A stretch of 64,000 nt of DNA from Escherichia coli O127:H6 str. E2348/69. GTDB taxonomy: Bacteria; Pseudomonadota; Gammaproteobacteria; Enterobacterales; Enterobacteriaceae. Positions 53,401 through 59,400 of this stretch are shown in pieces. The DNA is taken from assembly GCF_000026545.1 (NCBI RefSeq), contig NC_011603.1, one strand, 5' to 3'. The position numbers were made by a program. Every line of letters begins with the position of its first letter. Within the stretch, counting starts at the first letter, position 1.

Positions 53401-56400
53401 TGATTCGCCAGCAGTATAAAAATGTGGGTATTATCGCTACCGAGTTTACTATTAAAACGGGGTGTCACAAAGAGCTAATAAAAAAATTGAACCCAACAAT
53501 AAATATATTTGGAGAACCAAGCAAAAATCTTGCAATGTTAATTGAGGAAGGTAATCTTAATGCTCCTGCAATATTGAATGATATCAAAAAACATGTTAAC
53601 CATTTAATTTCCCTCCATCCAGTAAATGAAATTATTCTCGGCTGTACTCACTATCCAATTGTTCAGAATTTATTTGAAGCAGTTGCACCGGATATAAAAT
53701 TTATTAATCCTGCACATGATCAGGCTATCTCTATTAAAAATCACTTGGGACAGCTAAATTTATTAAACTCCTCAAATATAGGAACTTTGCAAATAAATAC
53801 TAGTGGAAGTATGGAGATCTACAAAACGGTACTAGGGGAATTGAGCATTACGAAACCTCATACATTCAGTATCAGGCAGTTTTAAATTTATCCGGTGCAC
53901 CGTAAAACCCCGTCCTTCTGAACTGCACCCCAAAAGTTGGACACCAACTGAGTAAGGTGCATTTTATGGGCAAACCCAGTTACATACTGGGTAGTGCATC
54001 CAATTAGTAGAACATGTGTTTTTCGATAAACGCTCCGATCACTTTTTCGTGGATCTCAACTGAGCGTGAGAAGCAGATTGTTTTACGACCCAACCGCTTA
54101 ATGCGGGTGCGTAGCGTCAGATTATTACGCTCAATGCATTGGGTGAATATTTTGCCGGTCAGATGCTTATTCTTCGGCACCTCCCGGCCATAGCTGCCCC
54201 AGTCATCGCTGGTCAGCATGCCGATGTTGAAGGGTGTAAGCAGTGCCAGTAGCTCCCGGCACGTTTGATCGGTTCGGGGACCAAAAGTGTAGGCCAGTAC
54301 ACCGCCTGTTTTGGTGTTGTACGCGTACCAGATCCAGTGTTGCCGGGCTTTACTGCCAACGTAGCTCCATTGCTCATCAAGCTCGCAGATAAACGCCACA
54401 TCAGCATGGGTAACAGGCGAAGAAGTTATTCGCTTTGGCGCGAGTTTTTTAAAGTCCGGATGACGGTGTTACTACCAATTTTCAGTGTCCTGGCGGTATC
54501 GCGAACCCCGGCACCATTAAAGGCCATTTCAGTGATCAGCTCTTTCATACCCGGCTTACGTGCTTGATAAGTATAAGTGAGCTGAAACACACGGTGGCAG
54601 TCACGGCAGCGAAGTCTGTCACGGCCTTTAGGGTTCTGACCATGGCGGTAAACCTGAGCTGACTGACAACGGGGACAATGAATATTAACTCTGGCCATGA
54701 GATAACCTCAAAAACCCGTATTATACATCAGATTCAACTAATTAGAGGCATCACCTATCCAGCATTATATAACATACTAACAATAACTAAATTATAATAA
54801 TCACAACTTATAATCAAATAATAAACGCATAAAATCAACAATGATTTTTTCTGGTTATATTTATCTAAAAAACGGAATATTATGTAACCTATTATTTTCT
54901 AAGCGTAAATTTATTATGTGGTCAGACTAACAAACTTGCGTACCACCCGAAGAATATGCGAAAATTTAAGTATTCTTTCTTTTTTTATTTTTTCATTTTC
55001 TCTTTTCTTCTCTTTCCGGTTCTCTTCTTTTCTGGTTTTGGTTTTTTCCTTTTTATTTTTATTCTTTCTTCAGGGTTGTGCTAAAACACCAAAACATTTT
55101 TCACCACAAAAGCATCCAATCATCTTGCCAGACCAATCACCTTAACCGGATACACTGCCGGATATAATCCCACTAACACCCAGCCACCCCGCACCATTCC
55201 TGATAACTACCGTATTCAGGAAGTTGAGCCCTACTCAATTGATGAAATGTTCATTGATTTGCGGGGGATAAATCATTGCATCTCTCCGGAGGCTTTTGGT
55301 CATCAGCTCAGGGAACAGGTAAAGAGCTGGACAGGACTCACCATGGGGGTGGGCATTGCGCCTACAAAAACGCTGGCTAAAAGTGCACAGTGGGCAACAA
55401 AGCAATGGCCACAGTTTTCCGGTGTGGTCGCGCTGACGGCAGAAAACCGTAATTGGATCTTGAAGCTACTGGGGCTGCAGCCAGTTGGTGAGGTCTGGGG
55501 AGTAGGACGCAGACTGACGGAAAAGCTGAATGCGCTGGGTATTAACACAGCACTGCAACTGGCGCAGGCTAACACGGCATTCATCCGGAAAAACTTCAGC
55601 GTCATTCTTGAGCGTACGGTACGCGAACTCAACGGCGAGTCCAGCATATCCCTGGAAGAAGCACCACCGGCAAAACAGCAGATTGTCTGTAGTCGCAGTT
55701 TTGGTGAACGAATCACAGACAAAGATGCCATGCACCAGGCTGTTGTTCAGTATGCAGAGCGGGCCGCAGAGAAACTACGTGGGGAGCGTCAGTATTGTCG
55801 GCAGGTGACGACATTTGTACGGACATCCCCCTTTGCAGTAAAAGAACCCTGTTACAGCAATGCCGCTGTGGAAAAGCTTTCATTGCCACACAGGACAGCC
55901 GGGGCATTATTGCCGCCGCATGCAGAGCCTTAAACCATGTCTGGCGTGAAGGGTACCGCTATATGAAGGCAGGAGTCATGCTGGCTGATTTCGCACCATC
56001 GGGTATAGCGCAGCCGGGATTATTTGATGAAATCCAGCCCCGTAAAAACAGTGAAAAGTTAATGAAAACACTCGATGAACTGAACCAGTCGGGAAAAGGG
56101 AAAGTGTGGTTTGCGGGGCGAGGAACCGCCCCTGAATGGCAAATGAAACGGGAAATGCTATCGCCTTCGTATACAACACAATGGACTGAGATCCCCATTG
56201 CTTCATTCTGATATATCAGAATAATTTTTTCATTTTAAGACGCACATCATTCATTGCCTCCTGCACCGAATCAGTAGCAGAAGGAGGCATTTTTTCAACA
56301 GATTGCGAAGCACCGAGTTCAGTCAACACAGCTCTGATATCGGCCTGAGAAGGCTTCCATCCAGTCGTCTGACTGAGTAAGGTTACAACCTGATCTGCTG

Positions 56401-59400
56401 AAAACTCCTCGCTCAAAATGGCTGTCAGCAATACAGGCAGGCGAGGATCAAGTTGGTGTAACGCCATTCCAGAAATAAATGCATTCCGGAACAGCTCACC
56501 ACGCTCAGAACGCGGAACGGACTCTATCGCTTCCAAAGTTTGAAAGTCTGCAGCTTTTTCCGGATGCAGATAAAGTGTGTATTTTTTCCTTTTCCGTTCA
56601 TCGTCCACAATATTACTCCTCTTTGAAAGCCGCGATAGCTTCAACCAGTGCTGTCTGTGGCGACTCCATCATCACTACTTTTTGCCCAAGATGGTGCCAT
56701 GCCGTTTTTATCGAATCATAGATCAACGGGGCCCCACCACCGACAACATAAACACGATTCACATGATGGAAATCACCGAGCTCATTGACTACTTGCTCCC
56801 CCAAACTGGCAATAGCCCCCTCAATGGTATTAAGGACCAGATCAGTTTTTGTTTCGTCATTTATAACCTGCCGAACAAAGTCCGGGTCATTACGACGTTT
56901 AATCAATTCATCTGCAACGAGGAAACTGGTATCACTGGATGCCATGCGCAATGCACTCATTGCAGCTTTCGTAACTGAAGACACACCAATGCCAGAATTA
57001 CCATGAATGGCACTTACAGAGTCAAATTGACCAACGATAACACCAACATCAAGCGTAGTGCCGCCAATATCAACTACCAGCGATTTTTCGAACTGACCAA
57101 CTTTATCCACGACCAGACGAGAAAACACAGCTGGCAATGATTCAGGCATCACATCAACGTGTTCAATGGTGAAAACATCGCCTTTATTAAGGCGAATCGG
57201 CCTCATTAAATTCTCAATTTTACGCTGAATGTTGAGTTCATTTTTTTGACACTCTTTCGTATAGAACTCACTGATAGGCAAAGTCACTGTCAATGATACA
57301 GGCTGAGGCGCTAATCCACTATTCAGTAAAGCGTGATGCACAGCTAACAGGTTAACCTCCGTATATTGATACTCAATATGAGTCGTAAGAATAGATTGGT
57401 TGCTAACTTCATCATACGTGTATTTTTTACCATCCAGTTCATAGTTAAATGTCTGGCGAATTCCTAACCCGTCAACCTTCCATCCATGACGAAATGAGTT
57501 TTGCGACAACGACTTACAGATTTTCCCATTATCATTCCATGCCAACTTGATTGTTGTTGAACCATCATCGCAGTATACGTTCATCTATAGCCCCTTAAAT
57601 ACTCAATCTGAGTAAATCACTGTTTCTAGTTGCAAGGTAATACTCAATTTGAGCACTATCATAGTTATGAAATCACAAAACACAAGTATTATTTATTACA
57701 TCACATGACACACTTCATATTTCATACTTCATAAATATGAATACATATTGACACCTCAGGTTACCGTGTCAAAATATCATCATACTTCACACATCACATT
57801 TATGAGGTTGCAATGATTACTGTAGTTGGTGGGAACAAAGGTGGTTCAGGGAAAACTACCATTGCATCAAACCTGGCTATTGCTCTCGCAAATAAAGGAA
57901 GGGAAGTCTGCCTGTTAAACGGAGATCTACAACGAACAGCCGCAAAACATCATGCGGAACGAGAAGCTGCAGGACTGTTACCAGCAATAACCCTTGTTGA
58001 GAAATTTGATAACCTGACACAAACACTACAGGCTCTGAATGAAAAGTTCGATGATGTAATAGTGGATGTCGCAGGAAGAAACTCAAAGGAATTCATAACG
58101 AGTGGAGTTGTCGCACATCAAATAATTGCGCCACTACAGTGTTCTCAACCAGATCTGGATACTCTTACAGAACTAGAACAACAGATAGACGCAATGCGTA
58201 ACCTTAACCCGGAACTTAAGGTTTATTGTTTACAAAGTATGGCAACAACCAATCCGGTTTTGAGGGGAAATGAGAGAAAAGAATTCCTTGAATATCTTGA
58301 AGAATTCCCAACAATTCAAGTCCTTGATTCAGTTATTTGTTTCAGAAAAGTCTATCGCGATTGCATGAGCAACGGCACCGGTGTAGTAGAAACGAACAAT
58401 ACAGCAGCCAAAGCAGAAATTGAACATTTAATGAATGAGGTATTTGGCCCATGGTGAAGAAACCCAGCCAGCAAGCATTAAACAGAGCTGCAGTTACGGT
58501 AGAACAAGCAGAGGCTCTGGCTCAGCGCCTTGCGGATAAACCATACGGCGCGCCGGAAAAACCCGAACCAGAAAAACAATGTCGGACGACAATCTCTCTT
58601 GGTGAAAGCATGCTTGTCACAATAGAAGATCTGGCATTGAGGAATAAACGCAATGGTAAAGATCCAAAAAATGTAAGTGCCATCGTCAGAGTAGCCCTTG
58701 AGCAATACTTAAAAACACTAACGTAATAATCAATAAGTTATTACTTATGAAATCACACTTGTGAATTCATACTGTTTAAGCACCCTTGCATACAAGAGAT
58801 CACATATTGCAGTGGTCTCTTTTTTTACAGAATAAATCACAATTCATAATTATGATTTATGAATTATGCGTGTCTGTTTTTCAGCATTGTGACCGCATCG
58901 GACTCAGGCATCGAAAACTGCACCCGGTGCCGTGCAGCCACATCCAGCGCAAATACCTTCGTGTAGACCTCCGTTGAGCTGATGGACTTATGCCCCATCA
59001 GGCTCTGCAGGACCTTCAGTGGTATACCGGCATACAGCATGTGCATCGCATAGGAATGGCGGAACGTATGTGGCGTGACCGGGACAGAGAACGTCACACC
59101 GTCAGTAGCAGCAGCGGCAACCGCCTCCCCAATCCAGGTCCTGACCGTTCTGTCCGTCACTTCCCAGATCCGCGCTTTCTCTGTCCTGCCTGTTCGTTTA
59201 TTACGCCGTTCCAGAGGAATTTTCAGTGTTGCCACCATCGTCTGCAGCTGACTGACGTACCAGGAGTCGGAGAGCGGAACCAGCCGGTGAGTCTGCTGTC
59301 CGGCAGGCGTTCTTCCTGCCGTCCTGGCGGCTTTTTCGGTCCGCTGCTTCAGAGTGGCCAGCTGCACAAACGGATACGGAGGCGCGAGCGAAAAATCTCC

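What the first reader, a model, noticed from the sequence alone, without database searches (positions are those of the whole stretch)
56216..58726. Double partition locus: type II parMR divergent from type Ib parAB sharing one repeat-rich control region
An actin-like ParM with ParR and a small deviant-Walker-A ParA with an RHH-type ParB are transcribed divergently from a 228-bp A/T-rich region with reiterated short motifs. A further repeat cluster lies downstream of parB (58740-58860, GAATTCATA-like motifs). This matches the dual par arrangement described for pB171-type plasmids, here combined with F-type ccd-resD.
Basis: partly seen in the sequence, partly recalled or inferred. Interest (0 to 1): 0.3.

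Follow-up and report, generated by a model that had tools for sequence, protein, structure and literature searches.

The report
Known pB171-type double plasmid partition locus
This is the well-studied double partition locus of EPEC virulence plasmids (an actin-like ParM/ParR system back to back with a small ParA/ParB system), here in a sequence identical to plasmid pMAR2, so it is real, intact and ordinary.

Summary
parR (56216-56608, -), parM (56613-57584, -), a 228-bp A/T-rich spacer (57585-57812), parA (57813-58457, +) and parB (58451-58726, +) are all intact. The window is 100% identical to pMAR2 of EPEC E2348/69.

ParR is 130/130 identical to PDB 2JD3, the pB171 ParR. ParA is the UniRef100 entry that a 2026 paper uses as pB171 ParA.

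The spacer (parC1) holds two ParR boxes (ACTCAAnnTGAG) and two arrays of 7-bp-periodic WTCAYA units. The same units recur downstream of parB (parC2). These two sites are the densest for that motif in all 64 kb, and the periodicity gives z of about 5.

The parM-parC1-parA junction occurs in about 1,030 PLSDB plasmids. Relatives about 71% identical in DNA, from Enterobacter and Lelliottia, keep the same anatomy, including the neighbouring resD. The "combination with ccd-resD" is therefore the normal context.

One side observation may be new. A third exact ParR box lies inside parM at +203. It is the only fully codon-invariant five-codon stretch across five diverged parM genes.

The parts
56216..56608 (-). 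parR (stbB): ribbon-helix-helix centromere-binding protein of par1, 130 aa, GTG start 4 nt after the parM stop, GAGGAG Shine-Dalgarno inside the end of parM
   Evidence: 130/130 identical to PDB 2JD3, which is pB171 ParR (PMC3074162). Pfam Plasmid_stab_B E=8.9e-30. RefSeq CDS coordinates in pMAR2.
56613..57584 (-). parM (stbA): actin-like ATPase of par1, 323 aa
   Evidence: Pfam StbA_N plus ParM C-terminal domain. R1 ParM structures E=1.4e-75. The exact sequence is known from pMAR2/pMAR7-type entries (CAS07538.1, Q0H056).
57367..57383 (.). Third, intragenic copy of the ParR box (ATACTCAATATGAGT), inside parM codons T-H-I-E-Y at +203. Candidate auxiliary ParR site; binding is inferred, not shown.
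   Evidence: One of only three exact ACTCAANNTGAG matches in 64 kb. It is a 17-nt run invariant across five parM genes that are 65-83% identical; the next longest run is 8 nt. It is the only fully codon-invariant window among 35 five-codon windows with invariant amino acids.
57585..57812 (.). parC1: shared 228-bp control and centromere region between the divergent operons
   Evidence: 32% G+C. 7-bp periodicity z=5.3. Repeat blocks are conserved in relatives about 71% identical, while the spacers between them are not.
57598..57614 (.). ParR box, promoter-proximal (AATACTCAATCTGAGTA; palindromic core ACTCA-N3-TGAGT), 28 nt upstream of the parM ATG
   Evidence: A box lies at -22 to -31 in all 11 relatives that have an exact core upstream; the twelfth, L009, has its only exact core at -84. 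[quoted passage not shown]
57639..57654 (.). ParR box, distal (AATACTCAATTTGAGC), 41 bp from the proximal box
57658..57754 (.). ParB heptad array I of parC1: 14 contiguous 7-bp units in one register, 8 of them strict WTCAYA or its complement, in both orientations
   Evidence: Register print-out. Motif density and periodicity. Conserved blocks in the alignment.
57748..57775 (+). Candidate parAB promoter (P2): TTGACA, 16 nt, CAAAAT, with TG upstream of the -10
   Evidence: Consensus scan, 10 of 12 matches. TTGAC and the -10 region are conserved in diverged relatives. No transcript data.
57779..57806 (.). ParB heptad array II of parC1 (ATCATAC TTCACAC ATCACAT TTATGAG), between the -10 and the parA Shine-Dalgarno; candidate operator
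   Evidence: Invariant over 28 nt in all four aligned loci, despite about 71% overall identity. Motif hits.
57813..58457 (+). parA: small type Ib deviant-Walker-A partition ATPase, 214 aa
   Evidence: NKGGSGKT motif in the sequence. NCBIfam ParA_partition E=6.7e-34, 117 bits, below the 180-bit equivalog cut-off. Pfam CbiA, MipZ and AAA_31. Weak similarity to ParF 4DZZ. UniRef100 Q0H055.
58451..58726 (+). parB: 91-aa centromere-binding protein with a C-terminal ribbon-helix-helix (residues 45-88) and a basic N-terminal tail; translationally coupled to parA (7-nt overlap)
   Evidence: Pfam RHH_1 at 21.7 bits, above the 20.5 cut-off. The presumed beta-strand region CRTTISLGE is invariant in relatives 74-84% identical. 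The exact sequence was seen on at least 1000 contigs.
58727..58870 (.). parC2: second ParB heptad region downstream of parB. Array I is 58738-58772 and array II is 58829-58870, 84 bp (12 x 7) apart, so they share one register. The region reaches the resD stop codon.
   Evidence: 28% G+C. Periodicity z=5.0 and 9 strict motif hits. Relatives also carry heptads directly after parB.
58794..58828 (+). Intrinsic-terminator-like hairpin plus T-run between the two parC2 arrays; likely end of the parAB transcript
   Evidence: 10-pair stem, 8-nt loop, T7 tail. A G+C-rich hairpin stands at the same place in L003.

Best explanation
This is the pB171-type double partition locus, as carried by the EPEC adherence-factor plasmid pMAR2.

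par1 (type II). ParR dimers bind the palindromic ACTCA-N3-TGAGT boxes upstream of parM. That complex represses the parMR promoter and serves as the centromere that caps growing actin-like ParM filaments, which push sister plasmids apart.

par2 (type Ib). ParB ribbon-helix-helix dimers bind cooperatively to the contiguous 7-bp heptads (WTCAYA, in either orientation) in parC1 and parC2. The array that overlaps the parAB promoter and leader gives autorepression. The ParB-covered arrays stimulate the nucleoid-bound ParA-ATP ATPase through the ParB N-terminal tail, so plasmids follow receding ParA and end up evenly spaced over the nucleoid.

Because both operons start in the same 228 bp, each centromere protein can influence the other promoter.

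Shown here: the genes, their identity to the characterised proteins, the repeat anatomy, its statistics and its conservation.

Taken from the literature on pB171: binding, repression, filament and oscillation behaviour.

Inferred: that the pMAR2 copy behaves the same.
For: Gene content and order.

Identity to known material:
- 100% DNA identity to pMAR2 over 2851 bp and over 61.8 kb of the window.
- ParR is identical to 2JD3, the pB171 ParR.
- ParA is Q0H055, used as pB171 ParA.

Repeats:
- 7-bp periodic arrays in parC1 and parC2, z of about 5, the densest motif sites in 64 kb, matching 'dual arrays of direct repeats upstream and downstream'.

Other anatomy:
- A -35/-10 pair flanked by heptads, and a terminator inside parC2.
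- The same anatomy in loci about 71% identical, with the repeat blocks conserved and the spacers not.
- The junction is present in 1031 plasmid records.

Literature: pB171 par2 with parC1 and parC2 stabilises mini-R1 and positions plasmids over the nucleoid (PMC4270457). The two loci are adjacent with one shared regulatory region (PMC6519299).
Against: - No functional data exist for this particular copy.
- The pB171 record (AB024946 / NC_002142) is not in the collections. ParM, ParB and the parC DNA could therefore not be aligned to pB171 itself, only ParR and, indirectly, ParA.
- The parMR promoter was not found by the consensus scan.
- ParA scores below NCBIfam's equivalog cut-off (117 against 180 bits), and ParB has no relative with a solved structure detectable by sequence. 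Their class assignment rests on motif, size, Pfam and literature.
Confidence: 0.95

Rival explanations
1. One of the two systems is a decaying remnant: only par1 or only par2 still works, and the other is carried along.
For: The flanking Y-family polymerase gene is truncated and frameshifted in this plasmid, so decay does occur next door. Plasmids with other arrangements, or with parMR alone, exist.
Against: - All four ORFs are full length.
- The proteins match characterised ones exactly.
- Both repeat sets are intact.
- The four-gene unit is kept in about 1,000 plasmids, at 95% identity or more in almost all of them. It is also kept in lineages about 71% identical, with protein-level conservation.
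Confidence: 0.03
2. parA and parB are not a partition system. They would be a MipZ/MinD-like positioning ATPase with a CopG-type transcriptional regulator, as the automatic annotations say, and the A/T-rich repeats would be only operators.
For: RefSeq names them 'division plane positioning ATPase MipZ', 'AAA family ATPase' and 'CopG family transcriptional regulator' or 'hypothetical protein'. ParA is below the NCBIfam partition equivalog cut-off.
Against: - ParA aligns over the full length of the ParA_partition model.
- A second repeat array lies downstream of the operon, past the stop codon, where an operator has no role.
- This very protein (Q0H055) is treated as the pB171 partition ATPase.
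- par2 with parC1 and parC2 was shown to stabilise and position plasmids (PMC4270457).
Confidence: 0.02

Closest known systems
Double par locus (par1 parMR / par2 parAB, parC1, parC2) of EPEC plasmid pB171 (Ebersbach & Gerdes 2001; Ringgaard et al. 2007)
   Same: Same gene order and orientation, a shared central region, and a second repeat region after parB. ParR is identical to the crystallised pB171 ParR. ParA is identical to the entry used as pB171 ParA. There are two ParR repeats upstream of parM and arrays on both sides of parAB.
   Different: No difference was detected. The host plasmid here is pMAR2 of strain E2348/69 rather than pB171 of strain B171. The DNA of pB171 itself could not be fetched for a base-by-base comparison.
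parMRC of plasmid R1/R100 (type II)
   Same: An actin-like ParM (E=1.4e-75, roughly half the residues identical), followed by a small ParR, with the centromere and promoter upstream of parM.
   Different: R1 ParR needs 11-bp iterons. Here there are two palindromic ACTCA-N3-TGAGT boxes 41 bp apart plus one inside parM. R1-type ParM is only about 41% identical by tblastn. R1 has no divergent parAB.
delta/omega-parS of pSM19035 and ParF/ParG-parH of TP228 (type Ib with ribbon-helix-helix centromere binders)
   Same: A small deviant-Walker-A ATPase with a small RHH protein that has a flexible N-terminal tail. The centromere is made of short contiguous repeats that overlap the promoter. Omega binds contiguous 7-bp heptads WATCACW in direct or inverted orientation, one dimer per heptad (PMC3074150). 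The same 7-bp spacing and mixed orientation are seen here, and a few units (AATCACA) even fit that consensus.
   Different: - The heptad consensus here is looser (WTCAYA). WATCACW as such is not enriched in the window (40 found against 32 expected).
- ParB shows no detectable sequence similarity to omega or ParG.
- ParA is only weakly similar to ParF (E about 1e-7).
- ParB of pB171 pairs centromeres without ParA, unlike omega.
Co-directional double par loci (parA-parB-like gene-parM-parR) on IncI1/B/O, IncF and Leclercia plasmids, and separated double par systems (R27, Shigella pINV)
   Same: A type I and a type II system on one plasmid. The ParM/ParR pair belongs to the same subfamily and uses the same ParR box.
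   Different: In those plasmids the two operons are in tandem, or about 90 kb apart (pINV). They therefore lack the shared divergent control region that defines the pB171 type.

Membership tests
pB171-type double par locus | Adjacent, divergently transcribed parMR and parAB operons separated by one shared region of about 200 bp (parC1) | tested here: met
   ORF map. 228-bp spacer at 57585-57812. Description of pB171 in PMC6519299.
pB171-type double par locus | Proteins orthologous to pB171 ParR, ParM, ParA and ParB | tested here: met
   ParR is 130/130 identical to 2JD3. ParA is UniRef100 Q0H055, used as pB171 ParA. ParM and ParB were not compared with pB171 directly, because the record is not in the collections.
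pB171-type double par locus | Two unrelated repeat sets in parC1 (ParR repeats and ParB repeats), plus a second ParB repeat region (parC2) downstream of parB | tested here: met
   ParR boxes at 57601 and 57642. Heptad arrays in parC1 and parC2 with z of about 5 and the top motif density in the window. Literature.
pB171-type double par locus | Each locus stabilises a plasmid; ParR and ParB bind and repress | not testable with these tools
   Needs loss-rate assays, footprinting and reporter fusions.
Type II (ParMRC) partition system | Actin-fold ATPase ParM | tested here: met
   Pfam StbA_N E=2.9e-64 and ParM C-terminal domain E=4.3e-44. R1 ParM structures E=1.4e-75.
Type II (ParMRC) partition system | Small ParR adaptor encoded directly downstream, binding repeats upstream of parM | tested here: met
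   Gene order. Identity to the solved RHH ParR. Boxes upstream of parM in 12 of 12 subfamily members examined. Binding itself was not tested.
Type Ib partition system | Small ParA (about 200-300 aa) with a deviant Walker A (KGGxxK[ST]) and no N-terminal DNA-binding domain | tested here: met
   214 aa. The NKGGSGKT motif starts at residue 8, so there is no room for an extra N-terminal domain (sequence). The ParA_partition model aligns 6-203 of 203, at 117 bits, below the 180-bit equivalog cut-off.
Type Ib partition system | Small non-HTH (ribbon-helix-helix) centromere-binding protein | tested here: met
   Pfam RHH_1 at residues 45-88, 21.7 bits against a 20.5 cut-off. This is marginal. No structure was predicted and no relative with a solved structure was found.

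The most novel reading that the evidence does not exclude
The par1 centromere/operator may be larger than the two ParR repeats described upstream of parM. A third exact ParR box lies inside the parM reading frame at +203 (window 57367-57383). It is held invariant at every synonymous position across lineages whose other synonymous sites are largely randomised. The Enterobacter, Lelliottia and Leclercia lineage has a further box 3 nt after the parR stop.

If ParR binds these boxes, the par1 complex would bracket or loop the operon. That would resemble the intragenic auxiliary operators of lac (O2) and gal (OI), or the way parC1 and parC2 bracket parAB. The extra sites could contribute to repression, to the size of the ParR scaffold, or to both.

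I could not establish whether this box has been reported, because the primary pB171 papers are not in the library.
Probability: 0.35. Interest if true: 0.3.

Novelty: already known. Interest (0 to 1): 0.1.

Why it matters
As given, the finding matters only as correct annotation. It identifies the segregation machinery of an EPEC virulence plasmid. It also shows that the automatic names for par2 ('MipZ', 'AAA family ATPase', 'CopG regulator', 'hypothetical protein') hide a textbook partition system that is present in about a thousand sequenced enterobacterial plasmids.

The double locus is a model for ParA-driven equipositioning and for cross-talk between two segregation systems, but nothing here extends that.

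The one possible addition is the conserved ParR box inside parM. If functional, it would revise the minimal par1 centromere used in pB171 ParR/ParM work.

Tried and rejected
- Reading the primary papers (Ebersbach & Gerdes 2001 PMC64986; Moller-Jensen 2007; Ringgaard 2009 PMC2775997; Brinkley 2006 PMC1594828; Sengupta & Austin 2011): none is held. Published repeat counts and promoter maps could not be checked. My recollection of 17 and 18 six-bp ParB repeats is unverified, and my own count of clear heptads in parC2 is lower (about 11-12).
- Literature search for an intragenic ParR site: the terms matched lichen (Parmelia) papers only.
- IHF consensus WATCAANNNNTTR: a perfect match lies at 58728-58740, at the start of parC2. 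Three matches in the window is what chance gives, so I do not count it as evidence.
- Omega-type heptad WATCACW: not enriched, so ParB sites are not simply omega sites.
- The consensus promoter scan found no parMR promoter on the minus strand. Relatives L006, L007 and L009 have a clear TATAAT just upstream of the proximal ParR box, but the window has no good equivalent, so P1 is left unplaced.
- PDB sequence search with ParB: only chance-level hits.
- Rejected the idea that resD-ccd adjacency is a new combination.
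Full report
**1. What is there**

- On the minus strand lies parM (56613-57584, 323 aa). Four bases further on lies parR (56216-56608, 130 aa).
- The mechanical ORF list extends parR to a TTG at 56644, inside parM. The GTG at 56608 is the start annotated in RefSeq. It gives the N-terminus MDDERK of the crystallised protein and has a GAGGAG Shine-Dalgarno in front of it.
- On the plus strand lies parA (57813-58457, 214 aa) and then parB (58451-58726, 91 aa). They overlap by ATGGTGA, which suggests translational coupling.
- The spacer between the two start codons is 228 bp with 32% G+C. 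The 137 bp after parB have 28% G+C. The window average is 50%.

**2. What the proteins are**

- ParM matches Pfam StbA_N (E=2.9e-64) and the ParM C-terminal domain (E=4.3e-44). It matches the R1 ParM structures at E=1.4e-75.
- ParR matches Plasmid_stab_B. It is identical in all 130 residues to PDB 2JD3, which PMC3074162 identifies as the ribbon-helix-helix ParR of pB171.
- ParA carries the deviant Walker A NKGGSGKT from residue 8, so it has no extra N-terminal domain. It aligns over the full length of NCBIfam ParA_partition (E=6.7e-34), although at 117 bits it is below the 180-bit equivalog cut-off. It is weakly similar to ParF.
- ParB passes the Pfam RHH_1 threshold narrowly, at residues 45-88. 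It has no sequence-detectable relative with a solved structure.
- The exact ParA sequence belongs to UniRef100 Q0H055. A 2026 NAR paper uses that entry as its reference 'pB171 ParA'.

**3. Where the window comes from**

- The 2851 bp around the locus are 100% identical to pMAR2 of EPEC strain E2348/69.
- The window as a whole is 100% identical to that plasmid over 1-47957 and 50109-64000. The stretch between simply lies outside the two pMAR2 pieces I fetched.
- pMAR2 is an EAF plasmid like pB171.
- Downstream of parB lie resD, a tyrosine recombinase (58864-59673), then ccdB and ccdA, both matching the equivalog models.

**4. The repeats**

*ParR boxes.* Two 15-nt direct repeats, AATACTCAATyTGAG, start at 57598 and 57639. 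Their core, ACTCA-N3-TGAGT, is palindromic. [quoted passage not shown]

*Heptad arrays in parC1.* The rest of the spacer reads in a 7-bp register.

- Array I has 14 contiguous heptads, from 57658 to 57754 (ATCATAG TTATGAA ATCACAA ... TTCATAT TTCATAC TTCATAA ATATGAA ...).
- A -35/-10 pair follows (TTGACA, 16 nt, CAAAAT with an upstream TG; 57748-57775).
- Array II has four more heptads (57779-57806), running into the parA Shine-Dalgarno.

*Heptad arrays in parC2.*

- Array I is 58738-58772.
- A terminator-like hairpin with a T7 tail follows (58794-58828).
- Array II is 58829-58870. It lies 84 bp (12 x 7) from array I, so the two share a register.

*Statistics.*

- The excess identity at lags 7, 14 and 21 beats all 1000 dinucleotide shuffles, with z=5.3 for parC1 and z=5.0 for parC2.
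- The parA and parM coding controls give z of about 0.
- The 25 densest 150-bp windows for WTCAYA or its complement in the entire 64 kb all fall on parC1 or parC2.

This fits the description of pB171 as having dual arrays of direct repeats upstream and downstream of the operon. It also fits the parC1+/parC2+ constructs used in functional work.

**5. Comparative evidence**

- The parM-parC1-parA junction is present in 1031 PLSDB records at 80% coverage or more, almost all at 95% identity or more.
- Versions about 71% identical occur on non-IncF plasmids of Enterobacter cloacae and Lelliottia amnigena. They have the same order: Y-family polymerase, parR, parM, spacer, parA, parB, integrase.
- In the alignment of the spacers, the conserved parts are the two ParR boxes, blocks of the heptad array, TTGAC, and above all the 28 nt of array II, which are invariant.
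- The DNA between the ParR boxes is not conserved.
- The ParB segment CRTTISLGE, which lies at the start of the RHH_1 match, is invariant too. That suits an unchanged recognition sequence.

So both centromere regions look selected.

**6. Mechanism**

I adopt the established pB171 model.

- ParR on its boxes forms both the operator and the adaptor for insertional polymerisation of ParM filaments.
- ParB dimers coat the heptads, repress the parAB promoter through the promoter-proximal array, and stimulate nucleoid-bound ParA-ATP. Plasmids then track the receding ParA and become equally spaced (PMC4270457; oscillatory behaviour noted in PMC11067062).
- The 7-bp contiguous spacing in both orientations is the geometry solved for omega of pSM19035, with one RHH dimer per heptad in a left-handed protein spiral on straight DNA. 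I infer a similar assembly for ParB. The sequences are not the same: WATCACW is not enriched here.
- Cross-regulation between the two promoters is expected from the geometry. As far as I recall it was reported by Ringgaard et al. 2007, but I could not read that paper.

**7. Comparison and novelty**

This is the pB171 double par locus itself, on a sister plasmid: already known. The link with resD-ccd is the standard context, not a new combination. Interest is low.

**8. A side observation that may be new**

- ACTCAANNTGAG has only three exact matches in the 64 kb. The third is inside parM (57371-57382), in the same orientation, 230 bp from the proximal box.
- It encodes T-H-I-E-Y.
- I compared five parM genes that are 65-83% identical, with synonymous third positions only 42-58% identical. 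Just 24 of 196 amino-acid-invariant degenerate codons are codon-invariant.
- These five consecutive codons are nevertheless all invariant. This is the only such case among 35 eligible five-codon windows.
- The 17-nt invariant run is twice as long as the next longest, which is 8 nt.
- In scans of about 4 kb around 12 members of the subfamily, the box occurs only in three places: upstream of parM (1-4 exact copies), at +203 in the lineages whose ParM has the sequence THIEY there, and 3 nt after the parR stop in the Enterobacter, Lelliottia and Leclercia lineage.
- In more distant relatives, where His is replaced by Asn, the left half-site is lost. The element is therefore lineage-restricted.

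I read this as a candidate auxiliary ParR site (probability about 0.35 that it is functional and undescribed). It needs binding and recoding experiments.

**9. Limits**

- pB171 DNA and the primary papers were not available.
- The parMR promoter could not be placed.
- The IHF-like site at 58728 is no better than chance.

Noticed in passing
window 57367-57383 (inside parM); L003:1256-1266, L004:1256-1266, L013 about 2872-2882: A third exact ParR box lies inside the parM reading frame at +203. It is invariant at all synonymous positions across five diverged parM genes: a 17-nt run against a next-longest of 8, and the only fully codon-invariant window among 35 five-codon windows. A fourth box sits 3 nt after the parR stop in the Enterobacter, Lelliottia and Leclercia lineage but not in the window.
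   Followed up: partly
window 55222-56211 (+), with IS1-like ISEc30 at about 54000-54700: The Y-family (umuC/impB-like) DNA polymerase gene that converges on parR in related plasmids is a remnant here. Its 5' part is missing next to an IS1-family element. A 1-nt deletion near 55885 splits the rest into two overlapping ORFs (55247-55933 and 55795-56211). It is 98.2% identical to the intact gene of a Salmonella IncF plasmid.
   Followed up: partly
L008 (CP122889.1), L010 (NZ_CP035469.1, IncI1/B/O), L013 (NZ_MH909330.1): The same ParM/ParR subfamily, using the same ParR box, also occurs in a co-directional double locus: a ParA-family gene, a small hypothetical gene, then parM and parR. Double par loci of this family therefore exist in at least two architectures.
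   Followed up: no
L003, L004, L005, L013 versus the window: The block Y-family polymerase - parR - parM - parA - parB - tyrosine recombinase (resD-like) is syntenic in the window, L003 and L004, across IncF and non-IncF (MOBP) plasmids at about 71% DNA identity. It looks like a mobile 'stability island'. L005 lacks the recombinase at that position, and L013 has the genes in a different order.
   Followed up: no
window 58728-58740: A perfect IHF consensus (AATCAATAAGTTA) sits at the very start of parC2 and is retained in a Salmonella relative (AATCAAGAAGTTA). Three matches in the whole window is what chance gives, so by itself it is not evidence.
   Followed up: partly
window 984-2535 and 39558-41109: Two identical inverted copies of a 1552-bp element (IS4-like ISEc13 in the pMAR2 annotation) flank the region that carries finO, the tra genes and oriT-proximal genes.
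   Followed up: no
RefSeq/GenBank annotations of identical or near-identical DNA: par2 is consistently mis-named or under-named by automatic annotation. ParA appears as 'AAA family ATPase' or 'division plane positioning ATPase MipZ', and ParB as 'hypothetical protein' or 'CopG family transcriptional regulator'.
   Followed up: no
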